Shown here: positions 2,228 through 63,496 of the stretch, one piece after another
How positions within the stretch are numbered: position 1 is the first letter of the stretch
How the letters are laid out: each line of letters starts with the position of its first letter
Source: a virus
Taxonomy: Duplodnaviria > Caudoviricetes
IMG/VR virus record: IMGVR_UViG_3300037454_000334
Location: 42,915 to 106,914 of that record
Reading direction: 5' to 3' (one strand)
DNA: 64,000 bases
The notes under the pieces: generated by a model
Database searches by the model: none
Told to the model about the DNA's origin: nothing
Seen by the model: only the letters and a program-made list of their open reading frames with translations
Made by a program: the position numbers and the translations under genes

Positions 2228-2318
2228 CCTACGACTCGGGTATACCGGTGCAGACAAACATTGTCAAACCCTTTAAAACATGAGGAAAGGAACGAATATG
2301 ATTACATAACAAAATAAC

Positions 2319-4133: not shown

Positions 4134-4155
4134 CGTGATCCAACAGACCGGAAAT

Positions 4156-4668: not shown

Positions 4669-4673
4669 TGAGA

Positions 4674-5228
4674 CTACTTCTCTGCATTAGATGCCTGTGC
4701 AGGCTGAGGAAAAAGTTCCTCGTATGGCTCCCATTCGATAGAATCCTTACGAGCCCATCCGTCAGACAGCGTTTGGTTAATATAGGCAACAGCCTTGATA
4801 TAGAAGTCGTCAGCATCCTCCATTGTCTCAAAAGTATGATACACTGGCAAACCATCCTCTGTTTCACCCATCTTGAATGTAACAGGTAACGTGGCGCCAT
4901 TCTTTTGTACAGCCAGGTCATAGGCTGATTTGAAGTTAAACTGATTCTCAGTAGAGAGCCATACAGGAATAACCTCTTCAGAACCGACAGGCGACCACGT
5001 AAATCCTGAAATAATAATCTCATCAGTCTGCGCATTGATGTCACCAAAAATTGCGTCCTTTACCATCTGCAGCGTCAACTGAGAACACTGTGTCTTGGGA
5101 ATATAGATTTCATACCACTCATACAGGTTCTTTCCTGCAACCTTCTTTAGATCGTAACCGATGACGATGCGCGAATTTTCTTCGCGAACGAGCGAGAAGT
5201 CGCTCTTTTTTCCACTCATTTTGTTCAT
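4674..5228 (-). CDS. phage protein, DUF4376-like (tail-fibre-associated)
   Basis: VWLSTENQFNFKSAYDLA...LPVTFKMG motif recalled from Bacteroidales phages. Confidence 0.6.
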   Translation of the reverse strand: MNKMSGKKSDFSLVREENSRIVIGYDLKKVAGKNLYEWYEIYIPKTQCSQLTLQMVKDAIFGDINAQTDEIIISGFTWSPVGSEEVIPVWLSTENQFNFKSAYDLAVQKNGATLPVTFKMGETEDGLPVYHTFETMEDADDFYIKAVAYINQTLSDGWARKDSIEWEPYEELFPQPAQASNAEK

Positions 5229-6495: not shown

Positions 6496-6555
6496 CTTTC
6501 ATCACCGACATTATAAAAAATTAAGAAAGAAAAGGAGCTTGTCCAGAAAGGAGTG

Positions 6556-6737
6556 CTGAACCGCGCGGACCGAGAAGCCGTTGAACCGATTGTTGTTGTT
6601 CTGCGGGTTGACACCACCAGAGTTGAAGTTCAAGTTCCGACCATTCGTGGCGGAGTTGAGCGAAGCAGCCCAGTAGTTGCCGTTCGAGCCGCGGTTGTTC
6701 CAAGACGTGCCATTGCCGTTGCCTGAGCACGGAAAAA
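6556..6737 (-). repeat. DGR template repeat (TR)
   Basis: 182-bp ungapped match to 7626-7807; 17 mismatches, 16 at TR adenines of the coding strand; 17 AAY codons. Confidence 0.95.
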
Positions 6738-6892
6738 TGGCACAAGCGATCGTCACCTGATACGACGTTCCGAAGGGGTTGTACAAGACAAGACCATCGG
6801 AGGTCTTTGATTTTTCCTGCGGCTCGGAGCCACAAGACGGACGACCTATGAACTACGTGTCTGAACCGCATCCTTTTCTTTTCCTTATTATA

Positions 6893-7495
6893 TTAGAACA
6901 ATGCGGAGCACTGCCGTTTGAGTATTCGCAGCACTTTCAAAGCCTCATTGGGCGTAATGTCCTCTACAGGTAATGCCACTATCTGCGCTAGGATATCGCT
7001 CATACGCATCGGTTGATTCTTTGTTCCCGTCAGCGGAAGCAAATCATCCGCAGGGATGTCCTTGCCTGTCGGTTGCTTGTCATCACCTTTTATAGGAAAC
7101 TGTTTCTTCCATTCAGAGAACTGCTGTATGAGAGAATCATAACTCATCTCGCCAAGCGATGGCGGAAGTTCAATGGCAACATCAATTAAGGTGTCGCTAA
7201 CAGGCTTGAAACTAATCTGGTTATCATTGGGTATGAACTTTGCAAGCGACGTGACAGGGAAACCGACAAAGATGATGGTGCCGCTCGAAGACTTTACCTC
7301 CTTATGCACGGGCTTCAGACGATGGGAACTCGTCTGTGCTATCTGATCATCGGTAACAGCAAACTCACGACAAAGCCATGCGCTCCATTCGTAGGCTTTA
7401 TAGGTATTCCCCTCACGAAACAAATGAATAACATTCCAATGCTCTGTACCCTCACGCTGTTTCTCGACCTCAAAGATTTCCTTATATGATGCCAT
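6893..7495 (-). CDS. DGR accessory protein, MutS-N-like (MSL type)
   Basis: IHLFREGNTYKAYEWSA resembles the MutS domain I mismatch-binding motif; sits between target and TR where avd usually lies. Confidence 0.7.
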   Translation of the reverse strand: MASYKEIFEVEKQREGTEHWNVIHLFREGNTYKAYEWSAWLCREFAVTDDQIAQTSSHRLKPVHKEVKSSSGTIIFVGFPVTSLAKFIPNDNQISFKPVSDTLIDVAIELPPSLGEMSYDSLIQQFSEWKKQFPIKGDDKQPTGKDIPADDLLPLTGTKNQPMRMSDILAQIVALPVEDITPNEALKVLRILKRQCSALF

Positions 7496-7553
7496 AACAA
7501 ATTCTATTTATTGATATTTGCCTTTGAATCATCATTCCCGCTGTCTCTGCGCT

Positions 7554-7570
7554 CGCCGCTTGGAGCGGCG
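7554..7570. other. DGR target-recognition hairpin downstream of VR
   Basis: CGCCGCT-TGG-AGCGGCG perfect 7-bp stem about 50 nt after the target stop; extendable by CTCTG/CAGAG. Confidence 0.75.
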
Positions 7571-7622
7571 GCTACAGAGCCTGCGTGAACGATGATATTG
7601 GTAACTTCTTGGTGACACGTAG

Positions 7623-8801
7623 TTACTGAACCGCGCGGACCGAGAAGCCGTAGAACCGATTGCCGTTGTACTGCGGGTAGACACCACCAGAGCGGAAGAG
7701 CAAGTACCGACCATTCGTGGCGGAGTAGAGCGCAGCAGCCCAGTAGCTGCCGCGCGAGCCGCGGTTGTTCCAAGACGTGCCATCGCCGTCGCCTGAGCAC
7801 GGAAAAAAGAGTTTCTTTCCGTTAATCTTAGACTTCAAATAGATACCCACTATACTATTAACTGTCACGAGCTTGTTGGCAGTCGATGTCGGAATGGTTG
7901 TCGTACCGTCAGCCTGCAGATACTCTATGTTATTGAAAAGCTCAGCATATTCATCGGTGGTAGGCATGCGCCATGGCGCACCAAGATTGGCACGGGCGGC
8001 ATCCATAGACGGTGGAATATTACCAGTGAGAGCTGCTCCTGGTGTTGATGCGTAAGGGCCGTCGTTACTGCTTCCCCAGTCGTAGGTGAACGACGATGCG
8101 TTGGCAGGGTTATGACCTTCTGTGTTACCCCATGAGAAGAACGTACACTCATACTGGTACTCTGATGCGGCAAAACCATTTGCCTGTGTCACGTCGATAT
8201 TCTTCTTAGCCCACTTCAAGCCACTAGGCAGACCCATGTCAACCCAAAGCTCACTATCATCGTCACTCTGCTCCAGTCCGCCCATACAGATGACGTTATA
8301 GTTCGTACCGTCATAGACAAAGGTCACGGTGGTACGTGGACGAATAACACCTGGCTGTATTGCTGAACCATTGATAACAATCGGCTTTGCGCCTTGGGCA
8401 TTGATATTAAGCGTAGCTCCAGCTATGTTCACACCATTCTGGAAGAATACGCTAACGGGTACGTTCTTCAGTAGAATATAATGAGCCAGCGTAACTGTCT
8501 TCGCAGCGGTTGTAGCTGCCGTTGAACAAGAGCCGAGGCCACTTCCCGCATAAGCCATGTCGCTCGTGATGTTGTCAATCTTTGTTCCCTGTGCGGCAGT
8601 GGCGAAGTCGCTCGGCTTCTTTCCGCTGTCTGTAGGATTACCATTTCCATCCAATCCAGCGAAATTTCCACTGGTAGGATTGTTTACTTTGTCGGCCTTT
8701 CCTTGCGCGATAAGTGTGGTCTGCTGTGCCATCGTCTCCATGGCGGTGGCAATGCGCTGCTGCGTGGCGTCGAGATTAATTGGGGATGTAATTTCTGACA
8801 T
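7623..8801 (-). CDS. DGR target protein, probable receptor-binding fibre/adhesin with C-type-lectin-like C-terminus
   Basis: WVDMGLPSGLKWA...WRMPT...FFPCSG...YW...GFSVRAVQ lectin-fold signature; VR at C-terminus. Confidence 0.88.
   Translation of the reverse strand: MSEITSPINLDATQQRIATAMETMAQQTTLIAQGKADKVNNPTSGNFAGLDGNGNPTDSGKKPSDFATAAQGTKIDNITSDMAYAGSGLGSCSTAATTAAKTVTLAHYILLKNVPVSVFFQNGVNIAGATLNINAQGAKPIVINGSAIQPGVIRPRTTVTFVYDGTNYNVICMGGLEQSDDDSELWVDMGLPSGLKWAKKNIDVTQANGFAASEYQYECTFFSWGNTEGHNPANASSFTYDWGSSNDGPYASTPGAALTGNIPPSMDAARANLGAPWRMPTTDEYAELFNNIEYLQADGTTTIPTSTANKLVTVNSIVGIYLKSKINGKKLFFPCSGDGDGTSWNNRGSRGSYWAAALYSATNGRYLLFRSGGVYPQYNGNRFYGFSVRAVQ
7626..7807 (-). repeat. DGR variable repeat (VR)
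   Basis: 3' end of target gene; differs from TR almost only at TR adenines; GC-rich GTCCGCGCGG end. Confidence 0.95.
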
Positions 8802-8828
8802 AATCTTGAATATTTTAGAATGTTAATA

Positions 8829-9266
8829 CTATGTCGTAGTGTATGTCTGGCAGAGTTGTCCATTGACTACCGATAAACCATAGGCATCTACATAATCCTT
8901 CACCTTGGTTGGCACGGCTGGTGTCTTGATGTCCGATGTGGAGACTGCGCCTTCCAGTGTTGCGTTGTAGGCATTGGCCTCGGCTGTGGAGAGCGTGTCG
9001 CCGGCCTCCTTCTCTGCGCCGGTGATGGCCTCGTTATAGGCCGCAGCCTGCTCGGCGGTCAGCGGGTCGGTCGAGTTGAGTGCGCCCGTCAGCAGTGCGT
9101 TGTAGGCGTCGGCCTCCGACTGCGTGTAGTAGACGGCCTCCGACGTGTTGGGGATGCCGATCATCTCACCGGTGTATCGCTGCATGACCTTCTCGACATG
9201 CTTCATCATGCCACCAAGGGTGACGGCATCTGTCTTCTGTTCTGGTGTAATCGAGTTCTGTGACAT
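8829..9266 (-). CDS. hypothetical structural protein with internal A-x-A-YNA repeats
   Basis: 145-aa ORF; three EAxAYN-like repeats. Confidence 0.7.
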   Translation of the reverse strand: MSQNSITPEQKTDAVTLGGMMKHVEKVMQRYTGEMIGIPNTSEAVYYTQSEADAYNALLTGALNSTDPLTAEQAAAYNEAITGAEKEAGDTLSTAEANAYNATLEGAVSTSDIKTPAVPTKVKDYVDAYGLSVVNGQLCQTYTTT

Positions 9267-9291
9267 AATCCTTCTGTTTTTGTTGATACTA

Positions 9292-9325
9292 CAAAATTAA
9301 ATTCGTGCCGGATTCAAAATGGGAC
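9292..9325 (-). promoter_or_regulatory. GTCCCA-N20-TAATTTTG promoter
   Basis: Motif copy upstream of 8829-9266 and the DGR target. Confidence 0.75.
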
Positions 9326-9329
9326 AACC

Positions 9330-9488
9330 CTACTGCGACGGGGCGACGGTGAAGACAATCTCCTCGGCAGCGGCCTCACATTCGGCATCGCTGGCAACAG
9401 TCGTCGACGGGAACTCGGCCCGCATCTTCTGCCTGAACCGTTCAAGGCGGCGGACCGTTACATACTTCGTTGGGTTTGTTAGTGCCAT
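9330..9488 (-). CDS. 52-aa mini-protein (N-terminus like 9564 protein, C-terminus like 12045 protein)
   Basis: MALTNPTKYV... and ...EAAAEEIVFTVAP shared with neighbours. Confidence 0.65.
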   Translation of the reverse strand: MALTNPTKYVTVRRLERFRQKMRAEFPSTTVASDAECEAAAEEIVFTVAPSQ

Positions 9489-9563
9489 ATCTCTTTCGTT
9501 TTTTATGTGAATACTTAGTAACTCCGTGTGGAGTCGAACCACACGGAGCCGATGGGAAAGAGA

Positions 9564-10523
9564 TTAAGCGAAGATCTCGTCGATGTCGTTGTCGGAGCAC
9601 TCCAACAGGTTGTCGAGCTTCTCCTTGTCGGTAGCCAACATCAGACCGTTGGTGCCGCCTGTGCCAGAGGTAGAGGCAGACACGTTGGGAACGGTCTTCT
9701 TGTGTACGGTGATCTCACCGTTGGTGTCCTGTGTCACGCTGTCGACGAAGGTCGTGTCGTTGCCGCTGGTGGTGGCGTCGCTGTCAGCAACAGCATCCTG
9801 CTTGATCTTGTAGTCGCTGTGCTTGTGACCAGAGTCAACGGGGTTGCCGTTGGCGTCGAAGGCGGCGAAGTTGCCCTCCACGGCGTCGGCGTCGATGGTA
9901 GCCAGGTCGGTGGCTGCGATGCCGGCGTCAACGAGGTTGCCGTTAGCGTCGAGCTTGGCGATGTTGCCAGCAGTAGCAGAAGCCACCTTGTCAGCCTTTC
10001 CAGAGATATCCTGGTGGGCAACGAGAACGTCCTGAGAAAGACCGCTCTTCAGCTGGATGTTCTTCTTGGTGGCGTCGCCAGATACGTCCGTGATGGACAT
10101 CTCGCTCTTCAAGGCATAACCGCTCAGGTCATACATACCGGCGAAGATGTCATACTTGTAGACGCCAGTCGAAGGATTGGCGATGTACACGTTGGCACCT
10201 GCGGGGATGCTGTGGCCAGCGCCCTCCACGAAGTCGGCTGTCGTGGTGAAGGCATCGGAGATGTTATACATGAAACCGACATTGGCGGCTACGAGGTCGG
10301 TCGTAGGATCAAGACCTGCGAAAGCCTTCGTTCCCTTGGGGACGATGCTTGAAGGCAGGGCCTGGATCTTGCCGAGCAACTCAGCGAGAGCAGCCTCTAC
10401 GGTTTCTGCGTTAAGACCTGTGATGGCGCTGATGGCCTGGGTCTGATACTTGGCAGCCAATTTTGTTTCAAAACGCTGCAATCTCTGTACGCTAACGTAC
10501 TTTGTTGGATTTGTTAGAGCCAT
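9564..10523 (-). CDS. fibre-like structural protein
   Basis: HQDISGKADKV, two GNxAxxDANGN repeats, NGLMLATDKEKLD fibre motif. Confidence 0.75.
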   Translation of the reverse strand: MALTNPTKYVSVQRLQRFETKLAAKYQTQAISAITGLNAETVEAALAELLGKIQALPSSIVPKGTKAFAGLDPTTDLVAANVGFMYNISDAFTTTADFVEGAGHSIPAGANVYIANPSTGVYKYDIFAGMYDLSGYALKSEMSITDVSGDATKKNIQLKSGLSQDVLVAHQDISGKADKVASATAGNIAKLDANGNLVDAGIAATDLATIDADAVEGNFAAFDANGNPVDSGHKHSDYKIKQDAVADSDATTSGNDTTFVDSVTQDTNGEITVHKKTVPNVSASTSGTGGTNGLMLATDKEKLDNLLECSDNDIDEIFA

Positions 10524-54023: not shown

Positions 54024-54235
54024 AACTATACTGAATTAAAATTGTTAAACTTAAATTTCCTCAAATATATATTGTTGCTATAAAGCACTGTTTTTTTCTT
54101 CTTAGAAATCAGCGGCACCGTCACGGGAGGCTGATATGATAGATTAATAACTTAAAGATATGTACTTTGTACTTTGTGGCCCGCCGGGGCACCGATCCCC
54201 AGATAGGTCTATAATTCCTGACGGGCCTACCGATA

Positions 54236-54979
54236 TTACTTAAAACCGTACTTATGGGCTATTTCGCCGTTGCCATACCAGGCATCCTCAAAGCTGATAT
54301 TCAGATAGCCCTGATAGATACGGCTGGATCCACGGCGCGCTTTCAGGATGATAGGATTACCGTCTTTGTCCGTTACCTTATTCGGCGCGCCGTTTTCATC
54401 CCAGCACGACCCGTTGGGGCTACCAGCCGTTGCAACCACGGCGCAAAGCATGCCGTCAATAGGTGTACTTTGATAGCCGTTGTAGCCGTTGACAAACGCG
54501 GCGTAGCCGTAGAACGGCGCGCCGTTCAGATAAAGGTGTACCACGGCATCCGACGTGCCGTCGCTGAGCTTTTCTTCAGGTAGTGGCGCCGTTTCATCCC
54601 ACAATCCGTTCCACGGCATTTCTTCTGGGCGCTTGTCGCCACACGTCACGATGTTATGTCGGAACGGCAAAAGCAAATCATTATTGCCAAAGCTGTTAGC
54701 CGTAGAACACAGATAATAGTAACCGTCGCGGCACAGCACGTACACCAGCACGGACACGGTTTTCCTGAATATGGATGCACCAGACCAAATGCCCCACTTC
54801 TTTTCTTGCATTTCATCCTCAGTGCCCCAGTTATCAAACGTCACGACACGGTAAAACTTATTATTCACGTTCAGGATATAGCAAAAGTTATAACCAGGCT
54901 GATTTTTGCCGTTCCTATTTTCGTATCTTACAACGTCTTTGCTTTTGCTCAGATCCGTTATTTCAAAATTCTTCTTCAT
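54236..54979 (-). CDS. hypothetical early protein
   Basis: 247-aa ORF with AT-rich leader. Confidence 0.65.
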   Translation of the reverse strand: MKKNFEITDLSKSKDVVRYENRNGKNQPGYNFCYILNVNNKFYRVVTFDNWGTEDEMQEKKWGIWSGASIFRKTVSVLVYVLCRDGYYYLCSTANSFGNNDLLLPFRHNIVTCGDKRPEEMPWNGLWDETAPLPEEKLSDGTSDAVVHLYLNGAPFYGYAAFVNGYNGYQSTPIDGMLCAVVATAGSPNGSCWDENGAPNKVTDKDGNPIILKARRGSSRIYQGYLNISFEDAWYGNGEIAHKYGFK

Positions 54980-55037
54980 AATCGTAAATGCTTTATTCGT
55001 TAATTCCCTAATTCTAATTTCTCACTATAACGTATAG

Positions 55038-55508
55038 TTACTTTCTGTTTCCAGCCACGTCGCCGTATGTCTTAAACAGCTCATAACTGTTATCCGTTGG
55101 TGACGTTAGGTAACATACCACGGCGTAGCCCTGGGCCACGTATGCTGCAGCAGCCGTGTCGGCATCCTCAGCCGTTAGGTAGTGTTCCTTATCCCAGCTT
55201 TTCTTATCTTTCCAAAGGATGAAATGATAGCGCCCGTATTGCCACTTTCCGTCGCGGAATATAAAGCGCTTGTCGCGCTTGTCAATCCACTTATAGGCGC
55301 TTTTGATACAATCATCCAGCGTGCAGCCGTATTGGCTGTTATACGTGCCGTCGTAGCCGACGGCGTAGCTTTCGCGGAAATTCTTATCGTAGATGAAGAT
55401 GCAGAAATCGCCCTGATCGGTTTTCTTGTCGCGGAAACGTACTGATAGCCCGTGTTCCTTTGCGTATGCTTTCAGCGCGTCGATACTGATAACTATATTC
55501 GTTTTCAT
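55038..55508 (-). CDS. hypothetical early protein
   Basis: 156 aa; conserved leader repeat upstream. Confidence 0.65.
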   Translation of the reverse strand: MKTNIVISIDALKAYAKEHGLSVRFRDKKTDQGDFCIFIYDKNFRESYAVGYDGTYNSQYGCTLDDCIKSAYKWIDKRDKRFIFRDGKWQYGRYHFILWKDKKSWDKEHYLTAEDADTAAAAYVAQGYAVVCYLTSPTDNSYELFKTYGDVAGNRK

Positions 55509-55575
55509 AATTCCTCAATTTTAAAATGTTTCTATAAAGTGTTACTTTCCTCTTTGTTGGGGCTGGGGCTGAAAG

Positions 55576-55932
55576 TTATGCAGCCCAGCGCAATTCCTTT
55601 AATTGGTTTTCAATCAGCACGGCCAAACGTTTTTCTTCATCCGTGAAATAGCTCAGCCAATCCAGACGCGTTTCCCAATCCACAATACCGGTCAATTTGT
55701 CCGTAAAGCTATCATTTCCACCCAGCATCCTGAACAGTTTTTCAGGATTAACGTTCGCGTGGCTATCAGCCGTCACTATCATAACGGGCACGCCCGAAAA
55801 ATTACCGTGGTTATCGTAATCTTTGCGGCGGGCTATAAACAGCGTGCCGTCGCTGTTACGGTACAATACGTCGTAATTGCTATCAACGCCACAAACACAA
55901 GCGCTGTTTACTTTGATAATCGTTGTTTCCAT
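55576..55932 (-). CDS. hypothetical early protein
   Basis: 118 aa; conserved leader repeat upstream. Confidence 0.65.
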   Translation of the reverse strand: METTIIKVNSACVCGVDSNYDVLYRNSDGTLFIARRKDYDNHGNFSGVPVMIVTADSHANVNPEKLFRMLGGNDSFTDKLTGIVDWETRLDWLSYFTDEEKRLAVLIENQLKELRWAA

Positions 55933-55996
55933 AATTCCTCAGTTTTTAATCGTTGCTATAATGTTATTGTTTCCCTATCTTTCCGGGCTGGGGCTG

Positions 55997-56248
55997 TTAG
56001 GCCCAGCGCAAATGTTCGCCCAGATTTGTTTCTTTCAGTACCCACGAAAACCGATCTTGCAGCTGGGCGCGTTCCGTTATCGTGTCGCCGAAATACTGAT
56101 AGTGTGCCACGGCGCGGGCTATCTTCTTATTCTTTGCCATAGCGTATGCAATAGCGTTTGGCGTGTCTATCGTGGTGCCCAGAACGTTTCCACGGGCATC
56201 ATGCAGCGTGCATGTAATTGCAGCGTTAACGCAACCAATTTTCTTCAT
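55997..56248 (-). CDS. hypothetical early protein
   Basis: 83-aa ORF. Confidence 0.6.
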   Translation of the reverse strand: MKKIGCVNAAITCTLHDARGNVLGTTIDTPNAIAYAMAKNKKIARAVAHYQYFGDTITERAQLQDRFSWVLKETNLGEHLRWA

Positions 56249-56309
56249 ATCTATTCAGGATTAAATTGTTAATACTATACTATCTTAATTTCTCAGCACG
56301 TCTATAACG

Positions 56310-56819
56310 TTATTGCTGGGGCTGGGCGTAATAACTTGTGTGACGGCACGGATCCCAGCTATATTCCTGAACGAAATGCACGCTGCATAATCCGTCGCGC
56401 AAACTTTCAATTTTGGCCGTGCATAGAATTCCAGCCGTTCCCGTTATCAATTCGCGGACACGTTTCTTTGCATCCTCAAACGTGGCAAAATACGGCATCC
56501 TGAACACGTCTAACAGTACTTTGCTTTCATATCCCGTCGCGTCGTTATCCACAATCTGAACGGTTAAGAAGAAATTGCTTTTATCCTGGGCATCCTCAGA
56601 AACGCCGATTTCTTGTATCTGATATTCAACAACTGTTTCGCCGTAATGCTGGGCGAAATTGATGAAACACGTGGCGTAATACTTTGCCGTTTCCTCAGTA
56701 CGGAATAGATAGGCCAAATTGATATCTTTTGTTTCGCGGGGCATCCCGGTTGACAAATTTGTATTTTCGTAATATACGGTATTGTTTCCGTCGATACGAT
56801 AAAGAATATACTTTTTCAT
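56310..56819 (-). CDS. hypothetical early protein
   Basis: 169 aa; conserved leader repeat upstream. Confidence 0.65.
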   Translation of the reverse strand: MKKYILYRIDGNNTVYYENTNLSTGMPRETKDINLAYLFRTEETAKYYATCFINFAQHYGETVVEYQIQEIGVSEDAQDKSNFFLTVQIVDNDATGYESKVLLDVFRMPYFATFEDAKKRVRELITGTAGILCTAKIESLRDGLCSVHFVQEYSWDPCRHTSYYAQPQQ

Positions 56820-56860
56820 AATTCCTCAGTTTTAAAATGTTTCTATAATATGTATATGGA

Positions 56861-57178
56861 TTAAAACACGTCGCTAACTTTCAGGCCACACACAAGCTGC
56901 ATGTTAGCAATACGTTCGTTAAGGTATTCCATATTTTCGCCCCAGCTGTTTTCATAATCCAGCATAAGCGCGTTAAGCTCAGTATCATCCGCTAAACAGT
57001 TATCCCGATTGTGGCCGTATTCGCCACGGGCTAACATTTTGACTAAATTCATCCGATCGTCGTCGCCCCAGATATAATAGACCACGGCATCCACGGCATA
57101 CGGATAACGCTGGGCGTCGCCGTTCTTTCTTGTAGCTGCATAAAAATCAGCAGCCGTATTGATATTCTTAATTTTCAT
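56861..57178 (-). CDS. hypothetical early protein
   Basis: 105 aa; conserved leader repeat upstream. Confidence 0.65.
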   Translation of the reverse strand: MKIKNINTAADFYAATRKNGDAQRYPYAVDAVVYYIWGDDDRMNLVKMLARGEYGHNRDNCLADDTELNALMLDYENSWGENMEYLNERIANMQLVCGLKVSDVF

Positions 57179-57236
57179 AATTCCTCAGTTTTTAATCGTT
57201 GCTATAATATATATAAAGGTATATGTGGGCTGGGCG

Positions 57237-57443
57237 TTAATCCAGAATAGTATCAGGCCAAATGCAAGCTATAACGATCCAACGATACCAACGGCCGTTT
57301 TCAAAGTGGTTATCTTTCCAGGCATCCCAAACGCTGCAATCAAAATAGCATTTGTACTGTTTCTTTAATTCAGCACGTTTAGCGGCGGCGGCGGCGCGCG
57401 CGTCGTCTAAATTTTCGTAGTACTTTTCAAAAATCGTTTCCAT
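57237..57443 (-). CDS. hypothetical early protein
   Basis: 68-aa ORF. Confidence 0.55.
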   Translation of the reverse strand: METIFEKYYENLDDARAAAAAKRAELKKQYKCYFDCSVWDAWKDNHFENGRWYRWIVIACIWPDTILD

Positions 57444-57501
57444 AATCTTTAAATTTTAATCTGTTAATACTATATTTCTGTTTCTCTAAATTCCTCAGTT
57501 T

Positions 57502-57873
57502 TCAAACGTTCCTATAATAGACGTTTATTTCCGTTTCCGGGCTGTTATGCAGCACGGCGGCGCGTATTTCATCCAGCAGATCCGCGTCGCTGGGCGTTAA
57601 TACGATATTCGTTATAACAGCGGCGCCCGTGCCCGTGGCTAATTCTATATCTGAATATTGTACCGGGCAAATTTCGTAAATCAGCGGCGCGGCAATTTCT
57701 GTTAATTCATCATCCAGGCATCCAGAATTCAGCCCGTCGACAAAAGTTTTTTGCTGGGCGGCGGCTGTTTCTGTATGAAACGTTTCATCGATCGTAATTT
57801 CAAAGAAATAATACATACTACCACAAACGCGGCGCGTTTCTTTGTCGAAATAGGAAAAATCAACGGTAAACAT
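57502..57873 (-). CDS. acidic hypothetical early protein
   Basis: 123-aa ORF. Confidence 0.6.
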   Translation of the reverse strand: MFTVDFSYFDKETRRVCGSMYYFFEITIDETFHTETAAAQQKTFVDGLNSGCLDDELTEIAAPLIYEICPVQYSDIELATGTGAAVITNIVLTPSDADLLDEIRAAVLHNSPETEINVYYRNV

Positions 57874-57950
57874 AATCTTAATTTTTTAGATAGTCTATAA
57901 CGTGTAATACTGTTTTCTAATTCGCAAAAGCGCTTAATTTCTCAGATAGT

Positions 57951-60900
57951 CTATAACATAAGGATCAGCAGCAGCGCGGCGGGCACGGCGGGGCATCCAG
58001 GAACGGCCACGGATGAAACGGGCACGGCTGGGGCTGGGCTGTTTGCAGCGGGCACACTATCAGCGGGCACACTATCAGCGGGCGCGCCGTTTGTTTCTGT
58101 TTCTTCATCCTCAGCAGCGGGCGCGGCTGTTTCTTCATCCTCAGCAGCGGGCGCGGCATCCTGAACGGCTGGGGCATCCTCAGCGGGCGCGGCTGTTATG
58201 CTATCAGCGGCCACGGATGCAACGGCGGGCACACTATCAGCGGGCGCGGCTGTTTCCAGGAACGGCACACTATCAGCAGCAGCGATAAACGGCACACTAT
58301 CAGCGGGCACACTATCAGCGGGCGCGGGCAAAGATACGGCCACGGCTGGGGCTAAATTATCAGGATTAACACGGCGGGCACGTTTGCGGGCGTTTCTGGG
58401 CTGTTTCTTTGCCACGGCGGGCAAACTATCAGCGGCCACGGCGGGCGCCGTTTCTGGGCTGTTTCTGAGCTCAGCAGCGGGCACACTATCAGCGGGCGCG
58501 GCTGGGGCTGTTTCTTCATCCAAAATAAAAGCGGGCGCGGGCTGGGCATCCTGAACGGCCACGGATGCAATAAAACGCGGCGCGGCTGTTATCAGCAGCA
58601 GCGACAAAAGCGCGGCGGCAAAACTGAAAACACGGCGGGCACGGCGCGAAAATTCAGCGGCTAAATAAAAAGCGGCCACGGCTGGGGCATCCTCAGCGGC
58701 AAACGGCGCGGGCGTTTCTTCATCCAGGAACGGCACACTATCAGCAGCGGGCGCGCCGTTTGTTTCATCCTCAGCAGCGGGCGCGGCTGTTTCCCAAATT
58801 TCCGGCATTATTGCAAAGATCGACGCAAACGGCGCGGGCTGGGCTGTTTCATCCTCAGCGGGCACACTATCAGCAACGGGCAAAGATACGGCCACGGCTG
58901 GGGCTGTTTCTTCATCCTGAACGGCGGCCACGGCTGCAAACAGCGGGCACGTTTGGCGCGGGAATTCAGCGGGCGCGGCGCTGGGGCTGGGCACGGCTAA
59001 AAGATCCTTTGTTTCCCCGGCCACGAATAACGAATTAATTACTATTTCATCCGCTAACAGTTTGGAAAAATAAACGTTTTCCAATTTGCCACACTGATAA
59101 ACGGCATACCAAACAGAAACAGCGGAAACGGGCACGGGCAAAGATACGGCGGGCGCGGCTGTTTCTTCATCCTGAACGGCTGGGGCTGTTTCCAGCTCAG
59201 CAGCGGGCAAAGATACGGCGGGCACGTTTGCGGCTGTTTCTGGGGCATCCTCAGCGGCCACGGGATCAGCAGCGGGCGCGGCATCCTGAACGGGCGCGGC
59301 TAAATTAAATATATCTTTATTCTGAACGGCTAAAATATTTAATACTTTGCCAATTTCGGCGGCTGGGCAAACGTCAAACAAACTTTTCCCGCCGGGCTGA
59401 ATATCCAGCTTATAATAAAACTTTGTTATTAATTTGGCACGTTTGCGGCTGTTTGGATAAATATATAATTCCTTTGTTTTATATCCTTTGTTTGTTGCAT
59501 CCAGAATAATAACAAATAAATTATTATCGTGTTTATGTATCATTATTAAACCGGGCAAAATAGAATTATAAGTATATACATTATTTTGTATTTTCATTTG
59601 CGCGGCCACGGCTGGGGAATAATTTGCAAGATCCTGAACGGCTGGGGAAACGCCCCAGATTTTCAGCCTATCAGCGGGCACGAATTCAGCGGCGGGCGCT
59701 GTTTCTTCTTCATCCTGAACGGCTGGGGCTGTTTCCAGCTCAGCAGCGGCGCGGGCTGTTTCTTCATCCGAAAAAGCGGCGGCAAAAGCGGCGCGCGCTT
59801 TTTCTTCTTCATCCAGATTTAAGTTATTAAAATATTCCGGCATTTCATCCGCAAAAGCGGCGGCGGCATCCTCAAAAGCTGGGCGCGTTTCATCCTCAGC
59901 GGCCACGGCCACGGCTGGGGCTGTTTCTTCTTCATCCTGAACGGCGGGCACGGGCTGGGCATCCTCAGCAGCGGGCGCGGCTGTTAATTCATCCAGGCGG
60001 GCGCGCTGATCCTCAGCAAACAAATTTATATCATTAAATGAAACGGCGGCGCGCGGCAAACTGTTTTCCCAGCTATCAGCAGCGGGCGCGGCTGTTTCTT
60101 CATCCTGAACGGATGCAACGGCGGCGGCGCTGTTTGCGGAATTCAGCGCGGGAAATTTGCAAATATCTAATATTTCCACGTTTGCGGCTGGGCTGTTAAA
60201 AAAGTTATCATGATACGGCGTTTTATCAATTTGCACGGGCATTAAAAGCGCGAAATAATTTGCAGCCGTAAAAATAACGGGCTGTTTCTCAGATATAAGA
60301 TACATTTTATCAGCAGCGGCCACGGCGTCTAAATCTTTGCCGTTAATAGCAATAATAAACGAAAACGGCACGGGCTGGGATAACTTTATTTTTGTTACTT
60401 TTTCCTGATCGGCTGTTTTTGGATCCTTTGCATTTTCCTTATAAGCAATAATTTCAATTTCTGGGGCTACCTTTGCAGCGCGCAAAATTACTACATTATT
60501 AACGGTATTTGAAAATTTTGCAGCGGCTAAAATAGCTTTTTTCAGCGCGTTAAAATCTTTGCCCAGAATTAACGCGGCATCCTCAGAAACGGCGGGCAAA
60601 ACTTTTTCCCAGCTGGGAAACGGGTAACAGTTATAAAGCTGTTTGGAATTCGTGCCGTTTGCGGCTGTTTCATTTCCACGAATTTTTATATTTCCTTTGC
60701 CCGTTTTAAATAACGTTGCATCCAGGCAAAAACGGCGCGTTTTATTTGGATCTAAAAGCGCTGTTAATTCTTCATCCAGATTAATAAACATATCAGGAAC
60801 GGCGGCGGCTGTTAATACGTGGCCGTTTGTTGCAACGACGGCACGGCGCGCGGCATCCACACAAATATATTTGCAGCTATCAGCGGCGGCGCTTTTAGCC

Positions 60901-61268
60901 GGGGCCACGGCGTTAAAAATAGATTTGGAAACGGCGGGCACGTCAAAAGCAACGGCCACGGGCGCGGCATCCGCTTTTCTTATAAACTTTTTACGGCGGG
61001 CGCTGGGAATTCCCCAGGCCGTTTCAATTTCGGCACAAATATAAAAAGCTGATCCAGCGGGAAACGTACATCTGTAGCCGTCGAATTCGACGCTAAAAAT
61101 ATTATCTATTTCATTATTAAAAAAACTATCTTTATAGAAATATTTATTAAGCATGTTTTTACTTAATTCCTTTGCCGTATATTCCCCGGCCGGGCATTTC
61201 GTATTATTAAAAACGTGCTCAGCAGCGGCAAAAATTCCGTTATATATTATAAGATCCTTTGTTTCCAT
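57951..61268 (-). CDS. beta-clamp-like N-terminal region fused to a long Ala/Pro/Asp/Glu low-complexity region (1105 aa)
   Basis: VVATNGHVL, FPSWEKVLP, INGKDL, ALLMPV echo DnaN motifs; the rest is built of AVQDEETAAPA/PADSV repeats. Confidence 0.6.
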   Translation of the reverse strand: METKDLIIYNGIFAAAEHVFNNTKCPAGEYTAKELSKNMLNKYFYKDSFFNNEIDNIFSVEFDGYRCTFPAGSAFYICAEIETAWGIPSARRKKFIRKADAAPVAVAFDVPAVSKSIFNAVAPAKSAAADSCKYICVDAARRAVVATNGHVLTAAAVPDMFINLDEELTALLDPNKTRRFCLDATLFKTGKGNIKIRGNETAANGTNSKQLYNCYPFPSWEKVLPAVSEDAALILGKDFNALKKAILAAAKFSNTVNNVVILRAAKVAPEIEIIAYKENAKDPKTADQEKVTKIKLSQPVPFSFIIAINGKDLDAVAAADKMYLISEKQPVIFTAANYFALLMPVQIDKTPYHDNFFNSPAANVEILDICKFPALNSANSAAAVASVQDEETAAPAADSWENSLPRAAVSFNDINLFAEDQRARLDELTAAPAAEDAQPVPAVQDEEETAPAVAVAAEDETRPAFEDAAAAFADEMPEYFNNLNLDEEEKARAAFAAAFSDEETARAAAELETAPAVQDEEETAPAAEFVPADRLKIWGVSPAVQDLANYSPAVAAQMKIQNNVYTYNSILPGLIMIHKHDNNLFVIILDATNKGYKTKELYIYPNSRKRAKLITKFYYKLDIQPGGKSLFDVCPAAEIGKVLNILAVQNKDIFNLAAPVQDAAPAADPVAAEDAPETAANVPAVSLPAAELETAPAVQDEETAAPAVSLPVPVSAVSVWYAVYQCGKLENVYFSKLLADEIVINSLFVAGETKDLLAVPSPSAAPAEFPRQTCPLFAAVAAVQDEETAPAVAVSLPVADSVPAEDETAQPAPFASIFAIMPEIWETAAPAAEDETNGAPAADSVPFLDEETPAPFAAEDAPAVAAFYLAAEFSRRARRVFSFAAALLSLLLITAAPRFIASVAVQDAQPAPAFILDEETAPAAPADSVPAAELRNSPETAPAVAADSLPAVAKKQPRNARKRARRVNPDNLAPAVAVSLPAPADSVPADSVPFIAAADSVPFLETAAPADSVPAVASVAADSITAAPAEDAPAVQDAAPAAEDEETAAPAAEDEETETNGAPADSVPADSVPAANSPAPAVPVSSVAVPGCPAVPAALLLILML

Positions 61269-61372
61269 ATCTTTATTATTTTAAACTGTTATTAATCTGT
61301 TATTTCTTCATCCTCAGCAGCGGCCACGGCTGGGGCATCCTGAACGGGCCCCAGCTGGGCGCGGGCTGTTTG

Positions 61373-61759
61373 TTATTCGTCGTCGTCGTCGTTTTCTTCT
61401 TCTTCATCCGTTTCTATTTCATCCAATACCGTGTTAATAGCTGATCCCAGCAAATAACAACGAATTGTAACGTCACAATATTCGGCGCCACGTTCCAGGG
61501 CATCCGCGCCGTTGCATCCGAATTCGTTCAGGGCCTCAGATAAAAGATCCATATTGTGACACAAATATTCCTCAGCGCGCCACGTGTTAAAAGTATAGGA
61601 TCCGCTTGCATTTCCAGTGACACTATCAGAAACAAACAAAGTATCATTTAATTCGTTTTCCACGTCGTCACGATTATTTGTCGTAACTTTAATTTCGTTT
61701 TCGTTAATATATTCGCGCACGTCGTCGCAAACAGCCTCAAAATAATTATACTTTTCCAT
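61373..61759 (-). CDS. highly acidic protein, Ocr-like DNA-mimic candidate
   Basis: 35 D/E versus 7 K/R in 128 aa; tail LDEIETDEEEENDDDDE. Confidence 0.6.
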   Translation of the reverse strand: MEKYNYFEAVCDDVREYINENEIKVTTNNRDDVENELNDTLFVSDSVTGNASGSYTFNTWRAEEYLCHNMDLLSEALNEFGCNGADALERGAEYCDVTIRCYLLGSAINTVLDEIETDEEEENDDDDE

Positions 61760-61840
61760 AATTCAAAATTTTTAAATTGTTATTAATCTGTTATTTGTTA
61801 TTTCTTCATCCAGGAACGGCGCGGGCGCCGTCGCTGTTAT

Positions 61841-61987
61841 TCAGGCGTTTTTAATTGAAACGTTTGAAACGTTGCAACCGTTAATAATAAATTCGTTAAT
61901 AATCTGGGCGGGCTGATCCGTAAATATTTCAGCAGTGCCGAAATTTGCGCCCAGGCAAACAGTTAAAAGAAATAATTTCGTTTTCAT
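61841..61987 (-). CDS. 48-aa hypothetical protein
   Basis: Manual translation MKTKLFLLTVCLGANFGTAEIF...; leader similar to neighbours. Confidence 0.4.
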   Translation of the reverse strand: MKTKLFLLTVCLGANFGTAEIFTDQPAQIINEFIINGCNVSNVSIKNA

Positions 61988-62007
61988 ATCTTTATTATAT
62001 TAAATTG

Positions 62008-62238
62008 TTATTTGTTTATTTCTTCATCCCAGATAATTAAAGCGGGAACGGATAACAGCCCGGCGGGCACGGATGCAAGAATAAAAATATGCATATAACC
62101 GGCAAAAGTGCCGTTATGCCACAAAAGTGCTGTTTTAGGTACATTAACGCCCCAGCTGAAAAAAGCGGCGTAAATTCCAACGGCTGCAAAAACTATCAGC
62201 AGCAGCGCGCAAACGGCAAAAAATTTTCTTTTATTCAT
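62008..62238 (-). CDS. small two-TM membrane protein
   Basis: 76 aa with two hydrophobic helices; first gene after the promoter. Confidence 0.6.
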   Translation of the reverse strand: MNKRKFFAVCALLLIVFAAVGIYAAFFSWGVNVPKTALLWHNGTFAGYMHIFILASVPAGLLSVPALIIWDEEINK

Positions 62239-62271
62239 ACCTTATTATTTTAAATTGTTATTAATCTGCTG

Positions 62272-62279
62272 CAAAGATA
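62272..62279 (-). promoter_or_regulatory. Bacteroidetes sigma -7 element (TATCTTTG) of the early leftward operon
   Basis: TAnnTTTG about 35 nt upstream of the 62238 start; no GTCCCA. Confidence 0.6.
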
Positions 62280-62742
62280 GATTATATTTTCCAAATAAAC
62301 GAATAAAATCTATTTTTTGAAACAATAATTAACGTTAAAACCTATCTTTTAACGCTTTTTTGCACGAAATAATCTATTTTTCATGAAAAAGCGAAAAATA
62401 AAATCTATTATTTGGCAAACGGCGGGCACGTTTGCCACGGCTGTAAATTGTTTCCCTATTATATATAAAAGGTATGCAAACGGCGCGGCTGTTTCTTCAT
62501 CCTGAACGGCTGGGGCTGTTTCATGAAACGCCACGGATGAAACAGCGGGCACGAATTTAGGAACGGCCACGGGCACGGCTGGGGCTGGGCTGGGATCCCC
62601 AGCGGGCACCCGGCACGGGCATATTGATACTAAGCACAGCAACCGACGCACGCCAGGCGAGGTCAGTGTGGCGGCGCTGGCCTTTGGCATATTGCCTCGC
62701 ATTTCTCAGATTTTGGCCTCGGAAAAATGACCATACACGGGC

Positions 62743-62785
62743 TGTAACTTGCTTATATACACTATGTGAATATCAGCAAGTTACA
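62743..62785. repeat. 43-bp near-perfect palindrome
   Basis: TGTAACTTGCTTATATACAC-TAT-GTGAATATCAGCAAGTTACA; 20-bp arms, 2 mismatches. Confidence 0.85.
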
Positions 62786-63127: not shown

Positions 63128-63496
63128 ATGGATATTTTATCAGTCATAAGAAGTCACGGTCATACGACCTACACACTCGCTAAAGAGATGGGTATTAAGC
63201 AGTCATCGCTCAGCAACATCCTGAACGGCAATCCTACTATCAAGACCTTGCGCCAGGTTGCTGAGAAGATTCCCTGCTCAGTCGTTGAATTCTTTATCGA
63301 CGAGTTGCCAGAGGACTTCAATTTGTCGGCTTTCCGTCCGTCATCCGGTGCAGATGCAACCGACAATCAGCCTCAGATGGAGTCAGACGTCGCCCCGGGC
63401 GTGTTCGTCTGTCCTCACTGCGGCGCAGGCGTGTCATTCAATACATTTGTAGTTAAAGAACCAACGGATAAGGAGGTAACTCATGAGCAAGTCTAG
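63128..63496 (+). CDS. XRE-family HTH regulator with CPHCG motif
   Basis: TLAKEMGIKQSSLSNILNGNPTIKTLRQVA. Confidence 0.88.
   Translation: MDILSVIRSHGHTTYTLAKEMGIKQSSLSNILNGNPTIKTLRQVAEKIPCSVVEFFIDELPEDFNLSAFRPSSGADATDNQPQMESDVAPGVFVCPHCGAGVSFNTFVVKEPTDKEVTHEQV

What the first reader, a model, noticed from the sequence alone, without database searches (positions are those of the whole stretch)
54130..62657. 8.5-kb 'stealth' block purged of specific short words on both strands
Seen by manual reading: between GGAG at 54126 and CGAG at 62658, GAG/CTC occurs essentially only as TGAG/CTCA, with two exceptions (intergenic CTCT at 55550 and 57484). About 200 VGAG/CTCB tetramers would be expected at uniform composition, and they are abundant in the rest of the window. 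The bias is stronger in the right half: in 57961-58980 I see no GGT, ACC, GTC, AGT, GTG or GTA on +, and every GT is GTT. It affects more than ten unrelated ORFs and the intergenic DNA on both strands, so it is a DNA-level constraint rather than codon preference. It ends abruptly at about 62.65 kb, with genes transcribed away from that edge. Inference: the first-injected region has been stripped of recognition sites for host sequence-specific defences (type I/IIG/III RM, BREX or a DNA-modifying toxin) while anti-defence genes are expressed. This resembles the T7/T5 leader idea at k-mer scale, and the missing words would be a negative image of host defences.
Basis: partly seen in the sequence, partly recalled or inferred. 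Interest (0 to 1): 0.92.

Follow-up and report, generated by a model that had tools for sequence, protein, structure and literature searches.

The report
Word-purged early operon of a phage
An 8.5-kb early operon of a probable Prevotella-family phage has almost completely lost a fixed set of short DNA words on both strands; related phages keep it that way, most likely so that sequence-reading nucleases cannot see this DNA before its products are made.

Summary
Window 54130-62657 holds 0 VGAG and 2 CTCB, against about 219 expected from the rest of the window. It is the only such stretch in the 107-kb phage contig. Synonymous-codon shuffles that keep the block's own codon usage still predict 37 VGAG and 32 CTCB in its genes, and none is seen. 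Intergenic DNA is purged too. A dozen other tetramer pairs are 5- to 30-fold depleted, and surviving GAG words lie almost entirely in one orientation.

The same purge occurs in six other contigs, including lineages only 37-50% identical in a shared protein domain. Two more distant lineages lack it, as do 80 control phage loci. Near relatives show about five-fold fewer new forbidden words than random substitutions would create. This is therefore a maintained DNA-level constraint, not codon bias, an artefact or shared ancestry.

The block is the early operon beside a divergent Cro/CI-type regulator gene and encodes several very acidic proteins. The best reading (about 45%) is evasion of short-motif nucleases, host Type I/IIG/III-like, during the first minutes of infection. 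First injection is not shown. The block does not avoid GATC although the rest of the genome does. A phage-encoded reader remains a serious rival.

The parts
54130..62657 (.). Word-purged ('stealth') block. There is no VGAG on either strand apart from two conserved AGAGG ribosome-binding sites. Other strongly depleted pairs are GGTC/GACC, GGAC/GTCC, GACT/AGTC, CACC/GGTG, ACCC/GGGT, CCAT/ATGG, AGGG/CCCT, CTAG, CATG and TCGA.
62480..62657 (-). GC-rich segment at the upstream edge of the block, built from the same DNA units as the low-complexity tail of the large gene. The ORF called here (62349-62702) is probably not a gene. Relatives carry longer arrays here; G001 has a tandem repeat of about 190 nt.
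62240..62479 (-). AT-rich, promoter-like zone with three copies of AATAGATT(T/A)T (+ strand starts at 62305, 62369 and 62400). The transcription start is not mapped.
62008..62238 (-). First gene of the operon, 76 aa, hydrophobic. It is conserved in L008 (97%) and L011 (44%).
61841..61987 (-). 48-aa ORF with a signal-peptide-like N-terminus, conserved in L008, L010, L011 and L014.
61373..61759 (-). 128-aa very acidic protein (35 D+E against 7 K+R, pI 4.1), all-helical in the model. It belongs to a very large family with no Pfam model (at least 7995 clusters).
60114..61268 (-). N-terminal 385-aa domain of the 1105-aa protein, possibly sliding-clamp-like. It has 98 cluster representatives at E<=0.001, many with long tails.
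57951..60113 (-). 720-aa Ala/Pro/Glu/Asp-rich acidic low-complexity tail (111 D+E against 41 K+R), written in a few repeated GC-rich DNA units.
57502..57873 (-). 123-aa acidic protein (pI 4.1) that follows the large gene in the window, L008, L011, L013 and L014 (65-88% identity).
54236..57443 (-). Seven small early genes with no Pfam, PHROG or NCBIfam match: 57237-57443, 56861-57178, 56310-56819, 55997-56248, 55576-55932, 55038-55508 and 54236-54979. All show a normal coding base composition by codon position.
55511..57505 (-). Five copies of the leader motif AAAA(C/T)TGAGGAA, four followed by TTATG (+ strand starts at 55511, 55935, 56822, 57181 and 57491). The ribosome-binding site is written as TGAGG here, whereas the rest of the genome uses GGAGGACTGA (14 copies, none in the block).
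55550..55553 (-). One of the two exceptions: AGAG within AAAGAGGAAA upstream of gene 55038-55508. It is conserved in L008, so it is a retained ribosome-binding site.
57484..57487 (-). The second exception: AGAG upstream of gene 57237-57443, also conserved in L008.
54186..54200 (-). It is a candidate end of the immediate-early transcript. Similar leader motifs continue downstream.
   Evidence: read from the sequence; it is not in the terminator scan
62743..62785 (.). Palindrome with 20-nt arms just outside the block, in the gap before the divergent regulator gene. It could be an operator or a recombination site.
   Evidence: (I10)
63128..63496 (+). Cro/CI-type HTH_3 regulator gene, divergent from the block. 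An HTH gene occupies the same relative position in L010, L011, L021 and two further contigs of relatives.

Best explanation
The block is the immediate-early operon of a temperate phage, or phage-plasmid, from a clade that probably infects Prevotellaceae. Natural selection keeps its DNA free of a fixed set of 3-4-base words on both strands. The asymmetric GAG-type words it still needs, for ribosome-binding sites and Glu codons, are kept in one orientation only. The most likely purpose is invisibility to sequence-specific nucleases that act before the operon's products exist. Candidates are host Type I enzymes, whose specificity modules each read about 3-4 bases such as GAG and can be reshuffled, and Type IIG and Type III enzymes, which need inversely oriented sites. 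The operon then supplies anti-defence or take-over proteins, several of them strongly acidic, and the rest of the genome no longer needs to hide. Shown here: the purge, its independence from codon usage, its restriction to one operon, its conservation and ongoing maintenance, and the orientation bias.
For: (1) The constraint acts on DNA and on both strands. Sense VGAG is 0 against 37 expected and sense CTCB 0 against 32 under synonymous shuffles, and intergenic DNA is purged as well. Most depleted words are depleted together with their reverse complements.
(2) Retained asymmetric words are nearly all in one orientation. Sense to antisense counts are TGAG 39:2, GAGG 28:0, GAAG 30:2 and GGATG 61:9, against 2-3:1 (1.3:1 for GGATG) in 29 kb of neighbouring same-strand genes. 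From my own knowledge, single-orientation sites are how T7 escapes EcoP15I.
(3) The purge is maintained. The orthologous 1155-nt domain holds 0-2 forbidden words in seven in-clade contigs (37-50% protein identity between lineages), against about 23 expected on recoding. Two out-of-clade lineages hold 45 and 27, as expected. Window and L008 differ by 301 substitutions that, placed at random, would create 20.6 +/- 4.2 forbidden words (minimum 7 in 2000 trials). Four new ones are seen.
(4) The effect depends on position. Cassettes found only in relatives (L003 726-1466, L008 2956-3885) are also purged. Flanks are normal in G000, G001, L008, L010 and L011.
(5) Context fits. The operon starts beside a divergent HTH_3 gene. 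Its products include proteins of pI 4.1: the 128-aa protein, the 123-aa protein and the 720-aa tail. T7 Ocr aligns over 102 of its 106 residues, but only at Z 4.2.
(6) Precedent exists. Only motifs in the first-injected region decide Type I sensitivity in Autographiviridae (PMC12455610). In T5, EcoRI sites and CRISPR targets count only in the FST region (bioRxiv 10.1101/866236).
(7) Two Prevotella intermedia strains carry three specificities with a GAG half-site (GAGN6TGG, GAGN6TTA, GAGN4TAC) and a rearranging hsdS locus. They also carry Type IIG motifs GGNYAG and GGYGAB (PMC5608340). In the block these two score 0 and 7, against 26 and 48 expected from the rest of the genome. A portal-sized protein is 64% identical to one on a contig binned in a Prevotellaceae MAG.
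Against: The block does not avoid GATC (26 observed, about 30 expected), although the rest of the genome does (192 against 375-462). GGATG, an active Type IIS site in both P. intermedia strains, is enriched (70 against 25). The same missing words persist across deep divergence within the clade, whereas host restriction repertoires usually turn over fast. No evidence places the block at a virion end or shows staged DNA entry, and G001's contig end is a repeat-induced assembly break. The phage is temperate, and an induced prophage would not need stealth. Complete loss of many 4-mers is far stronger than known restriction avoidance. No block protein has a demonstrated anti-restriction fold.
Confidence: 0.45

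Rival explanations
1. Self-immunity. An early, clade-specific phage function, such as a short-motif nuclease or nickase used to destroy host or competitor DNA, reads these words. The operon that makes it must lack them, while the rest of the genome is absent or protected at that time. This is the 'A1 is a restriction enzyme' model proposed for T5.
For: The same word list is stable across lineages whose synonymous sites are presumably saturated at 37-50% protein identity, and it is absent from out-of-clade relatives of the same operon. That is what a co-inherited phage gene predicts. The block's words differ from those avoided by the rest of the genome, namely GATC and CCGG. The invariant core of the block is the repeat array plus the large gene, and its downstream extent varies from 0.1 to 3.8 kb. 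The same logic has been proposed for T5 (bioRxiv 10.1101/866236).
Against: No nuclease domain was found in any block protein. The other 98 kb of the phage carries about 2500 sites and would need staged entry or modification. G001 has the block but no N6_N4 methyltransferase in its 75 kb, although that record is only about 76% complete.
Confidence: 0.2
2. RNA-level constraint. The immediate-early mRNA avoids cleavage sites of host or phage endoribonucleases, as with T4 RegB at GGAG, and avoids spurious internal translation starts.
For: Some signals are specific to the sense strand. Out-of-frame ATG is the most depleted trinucleotide under shuffling (z -9.8), sense CTC and the dinucleotide TC are nearly absent (TC rho 0.48), and GAG survives only on the sense strand. 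In L013, L014 and G001 the sense CTC-free zone runs 2-3 kb beyond the VGAG-free zone, which suggests a second, strand-specific layer. The block may end at a hairpin.
Against: The antisense strand is purged even more thoroughly: 2 GAG in 8.5 kb. Most words are lost together with their complements. The purge covers 180-700 nt of GC-rich repeats upstream of the promoter-like zone in the window, L010, L011 and G001. GAGG, the core of the ribosome-binding site, is enriched inside genes.
Confidence: 0.1
3. No reader at all. On this view the restricted vocabulary is a by-product of regional mutation bias, gene conversion among the GC-rich units, descent from a few repeats, or import of a foreign module with its own composition.
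For: The block differs in composition (GC 0.46 against 0.53, GC3 0.49 against 0.68) and is full of repeated units. Weak and strong bases are segregated into runs: 4-mers with no W/S switch are 2.07 times expected and those with three switches 0.47 times. L011 is a mosaic with the window.
Against: The purge holds outside the repeats and in a conserved globular domain after divergence to 37-50% identity. Divergence between window and L008 is the same inside and outside the block, 93-96%, so there is no hypermutation. Specific contexts are spared, such as T before GAG and ribosome-binding sites. No donor genome with this bias was found.
Confidence: 0.08
4. A cis-acting nucleoprotein function. On this view the repeat array and word-poor DNA are a loading and sliding track, or a coating zone, for a DNA-binding protein such as the clamp-like protein with its acidic brush. 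The missing words would be sites that stop or unload it.
For: The block always starts at a GC-rich repeat array. The same units recur inside the large gene. The extent downstream of the large gene is variable, as if it decayed with distance.
Against: The idea is purely inferential. No DNA-binding activity or clamp fold has been demonstrated (hhalign probability 3.9%). Nothing links the particular missing words to such a protein.
Confidence: 0.07

Closest known systems
First-step-transfer (FST) region of phage T5
   Same: A block of about 8-10 kb (5-8% of the genome) holding pre-early genes, rich in complex repeats and subject to HNH insertions. Restriction sites and CRISPR targets matter only inside it, and its own freedom from sites has been proposed as protection from the phage's host-degrading function (bioRxiv 10.1101/866236).
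   Different: T5 is virulent, the FST lies in a terminal repeat, and two-step entry is demonstrated. Here the phage is temperate, the ends are unknown and entry is untested. In T5 the evidence concerns single 6-bp sites, not wholesale loss of many 3-4-mers.
Leading, first-injected region of T7-like phages (Autographiviridae) and Type I restriction
   Same: Only motifs in the early-entering region determine sensitivity. That region is variable and encodes anti-defence genes such as Ocr (PMC12455610).
   Different: Those cases involve one bipartite Type I motif that is present or absent. Here about a dozen tetramer pairs are purged over 8.5 kb and the list is conserved across a clade.
Single-orientation sites as escape from Type III restriction (T7 and EcoP15I; from my own knowledge)
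   Same: Asymmetric words that remain lie almost entirely on one strand (TGAG 39:2, GAGG 28:0).
   Different: In T7 this is a genome-wide property for one hexamer. Here it is local, concerns 4-5-mers, and part of the bias could come from purine loading of the coding strand.
Genome-wide palindrome or restriction-site avoidance in phages
   Same: Selection removes short words that nucleases read. The rest of this genome shows the classic form, with GATC, CCGG and CTAG depleted.
   Different: The block's purge is regional, mostly of non-palindromic words, close to absolute, and does not include GATC.
Leading regions of conjugative plasmids
   Same: The first DNA to act is enriched in anti-defence genes (PMC11541004).
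   Different: A survey of 1751 plasmids found no consistent motif depletion there, only codon adaptation (PMC13478746). Here depletion is extreme and codon usage does not explain it.
SyngenicDNA (engineered 'stealth' DNA)
   Same: Synonymous recoding removes every restriction target so that the DNA is invisible to the host (PMC6561282).
   Different: That is a laboratory design aimed at one strain's known motifs. This would be a natural, evolved counterpart with an unknown target list.

Membership tests
Early or leading-region restriction-site avoidance (T5 FST, T7-like) | Recognition words are absent from one early region but present in the rest of the genome | tested here: met
   0 VGAG and 2 CTCB in 8.5 kb, against 2511 in the whole contig. 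It is the only such gap.
Early or leading-region restriction-site avoidance (T5 FST, T7-like) | The region enters the cell first (staged or transcription-driven DNA entry, located at a virion end) | not testable with these tools
   Contigs G000 and G001 both end near the block, but G001 breaks inside a tandem repeat.
Early or leading-region restriction-site avoidance (T5 FST, T7-like) | The region encodes anti-restriction or take-over functions that are expressed first | tested here: inconclusive
   The operon lies next to a divergent HTH_3 gene and three of its products have pI 4.1. No family match was found, and Ocr aligns only at Z 4.2.
Early or leading-region restriction-site avoidance (T5 FST, T7-like) | The missing words equal the recognition sequences of the host's nucleases | tested here: inconclusive
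   The host is unknown beyond a Prevotellaceae hint. P. intermedia motifs with GAG half-sites, GGNYAG and GGYGAB are absent or rare in the block, but GGATG and GATC are not (PMC5608340).
Codon-usage or translational adaptation of an early region | Word frequencies follow from amino-acid and codon composition | tested here: not met
   Synonymous shuffles give a minimum of 25 VGAG and 21 CTCB against 0 and 0 observed. The noncoding DNA is purged as well.
Genome-wide palindromic restriction-site avoidance | Depletion of palindromic 4-6-mers across the genome | tested here: not met
   In the block GATC, GCGC, CGCG, AATT and TTAA are not depleted, and the purge is local and mainly of asymmetric words. 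The rest of the genome does show GATC, CCGG and CTAG avoidance.
Type III / Type ISP evasion by site orientation | The remaining asymmetric sites all lie in one orientation | tested here: met
   TGAG 39:2, GAGG 28:0, GAAG 30:2 and GGATG 61:9, against 2-3:1 (1.3:1 for GGATG) in neighbouring same-strand genes.
T7 Ocr-like DNA mimic (the 128-aa protein 61373-61759) | Small, highly acidic helical protein with the Ocr fold that binds Type I enzymes | tested here: inconclusive
   35 acidic against 7 basic residues. The model is all-helical, pLDDT 79. Foldseek found nothing in the PDB. VIA-align puts 1s7z at rank 9, Z 4.2, rmsd 4.2, 102 residues aligned, which is within the noise range for helical proteins.
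Sliding-clamp (DnaN-like) fold for the N-domain of the 1105-aa protein | Detectable profile or structural similarity to beta clamps | tested here: inconclusive
   hhalign against the phage's own clamp gives E 0.011 and probability 3.9%, with motif-level resemblance. No PDB sequence hit, no Pfam hit, and the structure was not predicted.

The most novel reading that the evidence does not exclude
A clade of Bacteroidota phages carries a naturally evolved 'stealth cassette': an early operon written in a reduced DNA vocabulary. It defeats combinatorial, reshuffling restriction specificities (Type I specificity modules and Type IIG cores) by purging the 3-4-base half-sites themselves and keeping unavoidable words in a single orientation. 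If so, the list of missing words is a direct readout of the pooled nuclease specificities the clade faces, or of a new phage-encoded short-motif nuclease. It would also imply T5-like staged genome entry in a temperate phage-plasmid.
Probability: 0.3. Interest if true: 0.9.

Novelty: new variant of a known kind. Interest (0 to 1): 0.8.

Why it matters
Restriction avoidance in phages is usually a weak, genome-wide statistical bias, and positional effects have been shown only for single motifs in T5 and T7-like phages. Here an entire operon is nearly free of about a dozen tetramer pairs. The effect has sharp edges, is conserved across deep divergence and is visibly maintained by selection. Either way, a sliding-window measure of vocabulary size offers a simple new way to find early or leading regions in metagenomic phage contigs.

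Tried and rejected
- **Codon or amino-acid bias:** rejected by synonymous shuffles, with and without the low-complexity tail.
- **One codon per amino acid, or synthetic recoding:** rejected, because codon usage in the block is diverse.
- **Non-coding ORF artefacts:** rejected. Block ORFs have a normal base composition by codon position and homologues at 35-88% identity.
- **Assembly or sequencing artefact:** rejected, because the purge recurs in independent JGI, ENA, Logan and NCBI assemblies.
- **Hypermutation:** rejected, because divergence from L008 is 93-96% both inside and outside the block.
- **Link to the phage's N6_N4 methyltransferases:** weakened, because G001 has the block but no such gene in its 75 kb.
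- **CRISPR PAM avoidance:** considered. The four Type I-E PAM complements are depleted on the sense strand, but AAG and AGG are not, TTT and TTC are not avoided, and I-E systems are not typical of Bacteroidota (these PAM and taxon points are from my own knowledge). Not pursued.
- **Avoidance of Rho loading sites (YC dinucleotides):** sense TC is low but CC is enriched. Rejected.
- **DNA curvature:** no 10-11-nt AA/TT periodicity.
- **Known RNA families:** none found.
- **Searches that found nothing useful:**
  - megablast against phage records
  - the leader motif in viral contigs, which gave only chance hits
  - loci related to the neighbouring 323-aa gene
  - the genome-contig scan with the clamp domain
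  - a broad alignment that was too diverse to search with
  - P0022 in viral contigs
  - the literature on TreK
- **Fold searches:** ESM Atlas look-ups of two block proteins gave no usable lead. Foldseek searches of the 128-aa model against PDB and BFVD gave no significant match.

Full report
**What is there.** The window is the last 64 kb of a 106,914-base IMG/VR virus contig (G000, linear, CheckV completeness 65%). On the + strand of 54130-62657 there are 2 GAG, both TGAG, and 41 CTC (39 CTCA and 2 CTCT at 55550 and 57484). The density in the rest of the window predicts about 79 VGAG and 140 CTCB. Across the whole contig there are 2511 such words. The three longest gaps between them (5174, 1934 and 1424 nt) are adjacent and form this block, and the next longest gap is 368 nt. 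GGAGG/CCTCC occurs 208 times outside the block and never inside.

**It is not codon bias.** All thirteen ORFs are on the minus strand and use a varied codon set, including 28 GAG codons, each preceded by a T. Shuffling synonymous codons among the block's genes, which keeps its already skewed usage, gives 36.6 +/- 3.9 VGAG and 32.4 +/- 4.6 CTCB, against 0 and 0 observed. The 905 nt of intergenic DNA hold only the two exceptions. The result stands when the repetitive tail of the large gene is left out. The ORFs do look like genes. They have G-rich first and A-rich second codon positions and homologues at 35-88% identity.

**The purge is wider than GAG.**
- Relative to the rest of the window, GGTC/GACC, GGAC/GTCC, GACT/AGTC, CACC/GGTG, ACCC/GGGT, CCAT/ATGG and AGGG/CCCT fall to 0.03-0.16 of expectation. 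Sense CTTC also falls to 0.05.
- CTAG is absent, though it is rare in the whole genome. CATG and TCGA are each 8 against 33 expected.
- The block uses 797 of 1024 pentamers and 2013 hexamers, against about 1000 and 3100 in every other 8.5-kb window.
- Weak and strong bases are segregated. Tetramers with no W/S switch are 2.07 times expected and those with three switches 0.47 times, while in the rest of the genome all classes are near 1.
- Surviving asymmetric words sit on one strand: TGAG 39:2, GAGG 28:0, GAAG 30:2 and GGATG 61:9, against 2-3:1 (1.3:1 for GGATG) in neighbouring same-strand genes.
- Across six blocks, 126 of 141 sense GAG follow a T and 72 lie in CTGAGGA.
- Ribosome-binding sites are written as TGAGGAA here, but as GGAGGACTGA in the accessory arrays elsewhere (14 copies).

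**Relatives.**
- L008, a 12-kb metagenome contig, is 94-96% identical. It carries the block at 1835-10160 with normal flanks and six exceptions, two of which are the same conserved ribosome-binding-site AGAGs.
- L010, L012, L013 and L014 share the 385-aa N-terminal domain of the large protein at only 37-50% identity, and all have the purge. So does L011, but L011 is a mosaic with the window in its distal genes and is not fully independent.
- L014 lies in G001, a 75-kb related phage whose only purged stretch is at its right end.
- Pooled over 36 kb of blocks, GGAG occurs once against 140 expected. CTCC, CTCG and CTCT occur four times each, and the other missing words are the same in every lineage.
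- In the orthologous 1155-nt domain the in-clade contigs hold 0-2 forbidden words, against about 23 on recoding with the phage's general codon usage. The out-of-clade homologues L015 and L021 (28-30% identity, GC 0.62) hold 45 and 27, as expected.
- Eighty IMG/VR loci that carry homologues of the block's 128-aa gene show no VGAG-free run above 850 nt and no dip in vocabulary.
- Cassettes present only in relatives at this locus are also purged.

**Selection is still acting.** Window and L008 differ by 301 substitutions over 6.5 kb of aligned block. Placing the same substitution types at random creates 20.6 +/- 4.2 forbidden words, with a minimum of 7 in 2000 trials. Four new ones are present in L008 and none in the window. 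Divergence is the same inside and outside the block, so this is filtering of new mutations rather than hypermutation.

**Anatomy.**
- The upstream edge (62657) lies in a GC-rich segment made of the same DNA units as the large gene's low-complexity tail. Next comes an AT-rich zone with three AATAGATT(T/A)T repeats, and then the first gene.
- Beyond the edge are a palindrome with 20-nt arms and a divergent HTH_3 gene.
- An HTH gene divergent from the operon recurs in relatives. Some of them have HNH or DUF723 genes, rich in forbidden words, inserted between it and the block.
- G001's contig ends inside a tandem repeat of about 190 nt from this array, which explains the contig break.
- The downstream edge (54130) follows a GGGG-N7-CCCC hairpin, and similar leader motifs continue beyond it.
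- The block's extent past the large gene varies: about 0.1 kb in L010, 0.7-1.5 kb in L013 and L014, and 3.8 kb in the window, L008 and L011.
- In L013, L014 and G001 the sense CTC-free zone runs 2-3 kb further than the VGAG-free zone.
- The products include a 128-aa protein with 35 acidic and 7 basic residues, from a family of at least 7995 clusters with no Pfam model. There is also an acidic 123-aa protein and a 720-aa acidic tail on a possibly clamp-like domain.
- No block protein matched Pfam, PHROGs or NCBIfam. The 128-aa model (pLDDT 79) aligns to T7 Ocr over 102 residues, but at Z 4.2, which is not significant.

**The phage.** It carries an integrase, a DGR-type reverse transcriptase, tail fibres, a sliding clamp, a Rep_3 initiator with ParA, two N6_N4 methyltransferases, a PAPS-reductase-like gene, an amidase and NAMPT. 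A portal-sized protein is 64% identical to one on a contig binned in a Prevotellaceae MAG.

**Interpretation.** The data establish a DNA-level, position-dependent, selected avoidance of short words. They do not identify what reads those words. The host-nuclease model has five points in its favour:
- the depletion is symmetric between strands
- the retained words are in a single orientation
- the location is the early operon
- the operon's products are acidic
- there are experimental precedents (PMC12455610; bioRxiv 10.1101/866236)

Short words also make sense for this model if the targets are Type I half-sites or Type IIG cores. Two Prevotella intermedia strains carry three GAG-half-site specificities, a rearranging hsdS locus, and the motifs GGNYAG and GGYGAB (PMC5608340). 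These two are nearly absent from the block.

Four points count against it. GATC is not avoided in the block although it is halved elsewhere. GGATG is enriched. The word list is stable over deep divergence. First entry is unproven. A phage-encoded reader, as proposed for T5's A1, fits the stability and the clade restriction, but it has no candidate gene. RNA-level selection probably adds a sense-specific layer (ATG, CTC, TC), but it cannot explain the antisense strand or the purged upstream array.

**Verdict.** The concept is known from T5 and T7-like phages. Its scale, the short length of the words, the orientation rule and the conservation across a clade are new.

Noticed in passing
window 62480-62657 and 57951-60113; G001 (L020) last 470 nt: The same GC-rich DNA units, such as CACTATCAGCGGGCAC and TCATCCTCAGCAGCGGGCGCGGC on the + strand, occur in frame in the 720-aa tail of the large gene and in non-coding arrays upstream of the operon's promoter zone. 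In G001 the array is a tandem repeat of about 190 nt. This suggests a DNA-level role (binding sites, an injection-stop-like or Chi-like element) as well as, or instead of, a protein role.
   Followed up: partly
window 61373-61759 (-): The 128-aa very acidic helical protein belongs to a very large family with no Pfam model: at least 7995 clusters at 90% identity, and 474 hits in IMG/VR, mostly in GC 0.37 phages of 50-95 kb. It carries an invariant TGNxSGSY...W.AEE motif.
   Followed up: partly
whole contig G000 outside the block: The rest of the genome shows classic palindrome avoidance: GATC 192 against 375-462 expected, CCGG 194 against 404-480, CTAG 17 against 107-375. The block keeps GATC at the expected level.
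   Followed up: yes
L015 (4.2-kb contig, out-of-clade homologue): This distant homologue of the large gene has a different skewed vocabulary. TAG, GGA/TCC, CCA and GGG are 0.07-0.24 of expectation and CTCC and CTCT are absent, while GAG and CGAG are 2-4 times enriched. No flanks were available, so it cannot be told whether this is a regional property or just the low-complexity tail.
   Followed up: partly
L013 4500-7738; L014 5500-8000; G001 67.5-69.9 kb: Downstream of the VGAG-free zone, sense VGAG returns at 4-10 per 500 nt but sense CTC stays near zero for another 2-3 kb. This looks like a second, strand-specific constraint with a different extent.
   Followed up: no
G000:C1:3118-4659 (-): A 513-aa nicotinamide phosphoribosyltransferase gene (phrog_448, E 3e-200). 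From my own knowledge, enzymes of this kind are phage counter-measures against NAD-depleting defences.
   Followed up: no
G000:C1:22613-23441 (+): A third N6_N4 DNA methyltransferase match is interrupted by one in-frame TAG and continues in a second piece.
   Followed up: no
window 54236-62238, block genes: Third codon positions in the block are balanced (GC3 0.49, A3 0.21), against GC3 0.68 and A3 0.10 in neighbouring genes. As a result, the usual 3-nt periodicity of AA/TT is missing in the block.
   Followed up: partly
L011 9581-12319 against 6870-8024: L011 is a mosaic. Its distal block genes are 88-97% identical to the window's at the protein level, but its clamp-like domain is only 48% identical. 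Recombination therefore shuffles cassettes within the purged zone.
   Followed up: partly
L011 2208-4661; L008 221-1612; GCA_016648615.1 contig (no DNA held): In some relatives, genes rich in forbidden words are inserted between the HTH gene and the start of the block. These are an HNH gene, a DUF723 gene and a 463-aa protein with weak zinc-finger/DUF2726 matches. The arrangement recalls the HNH insertion between repeat regions in the T5 FST.
   Followed up: no
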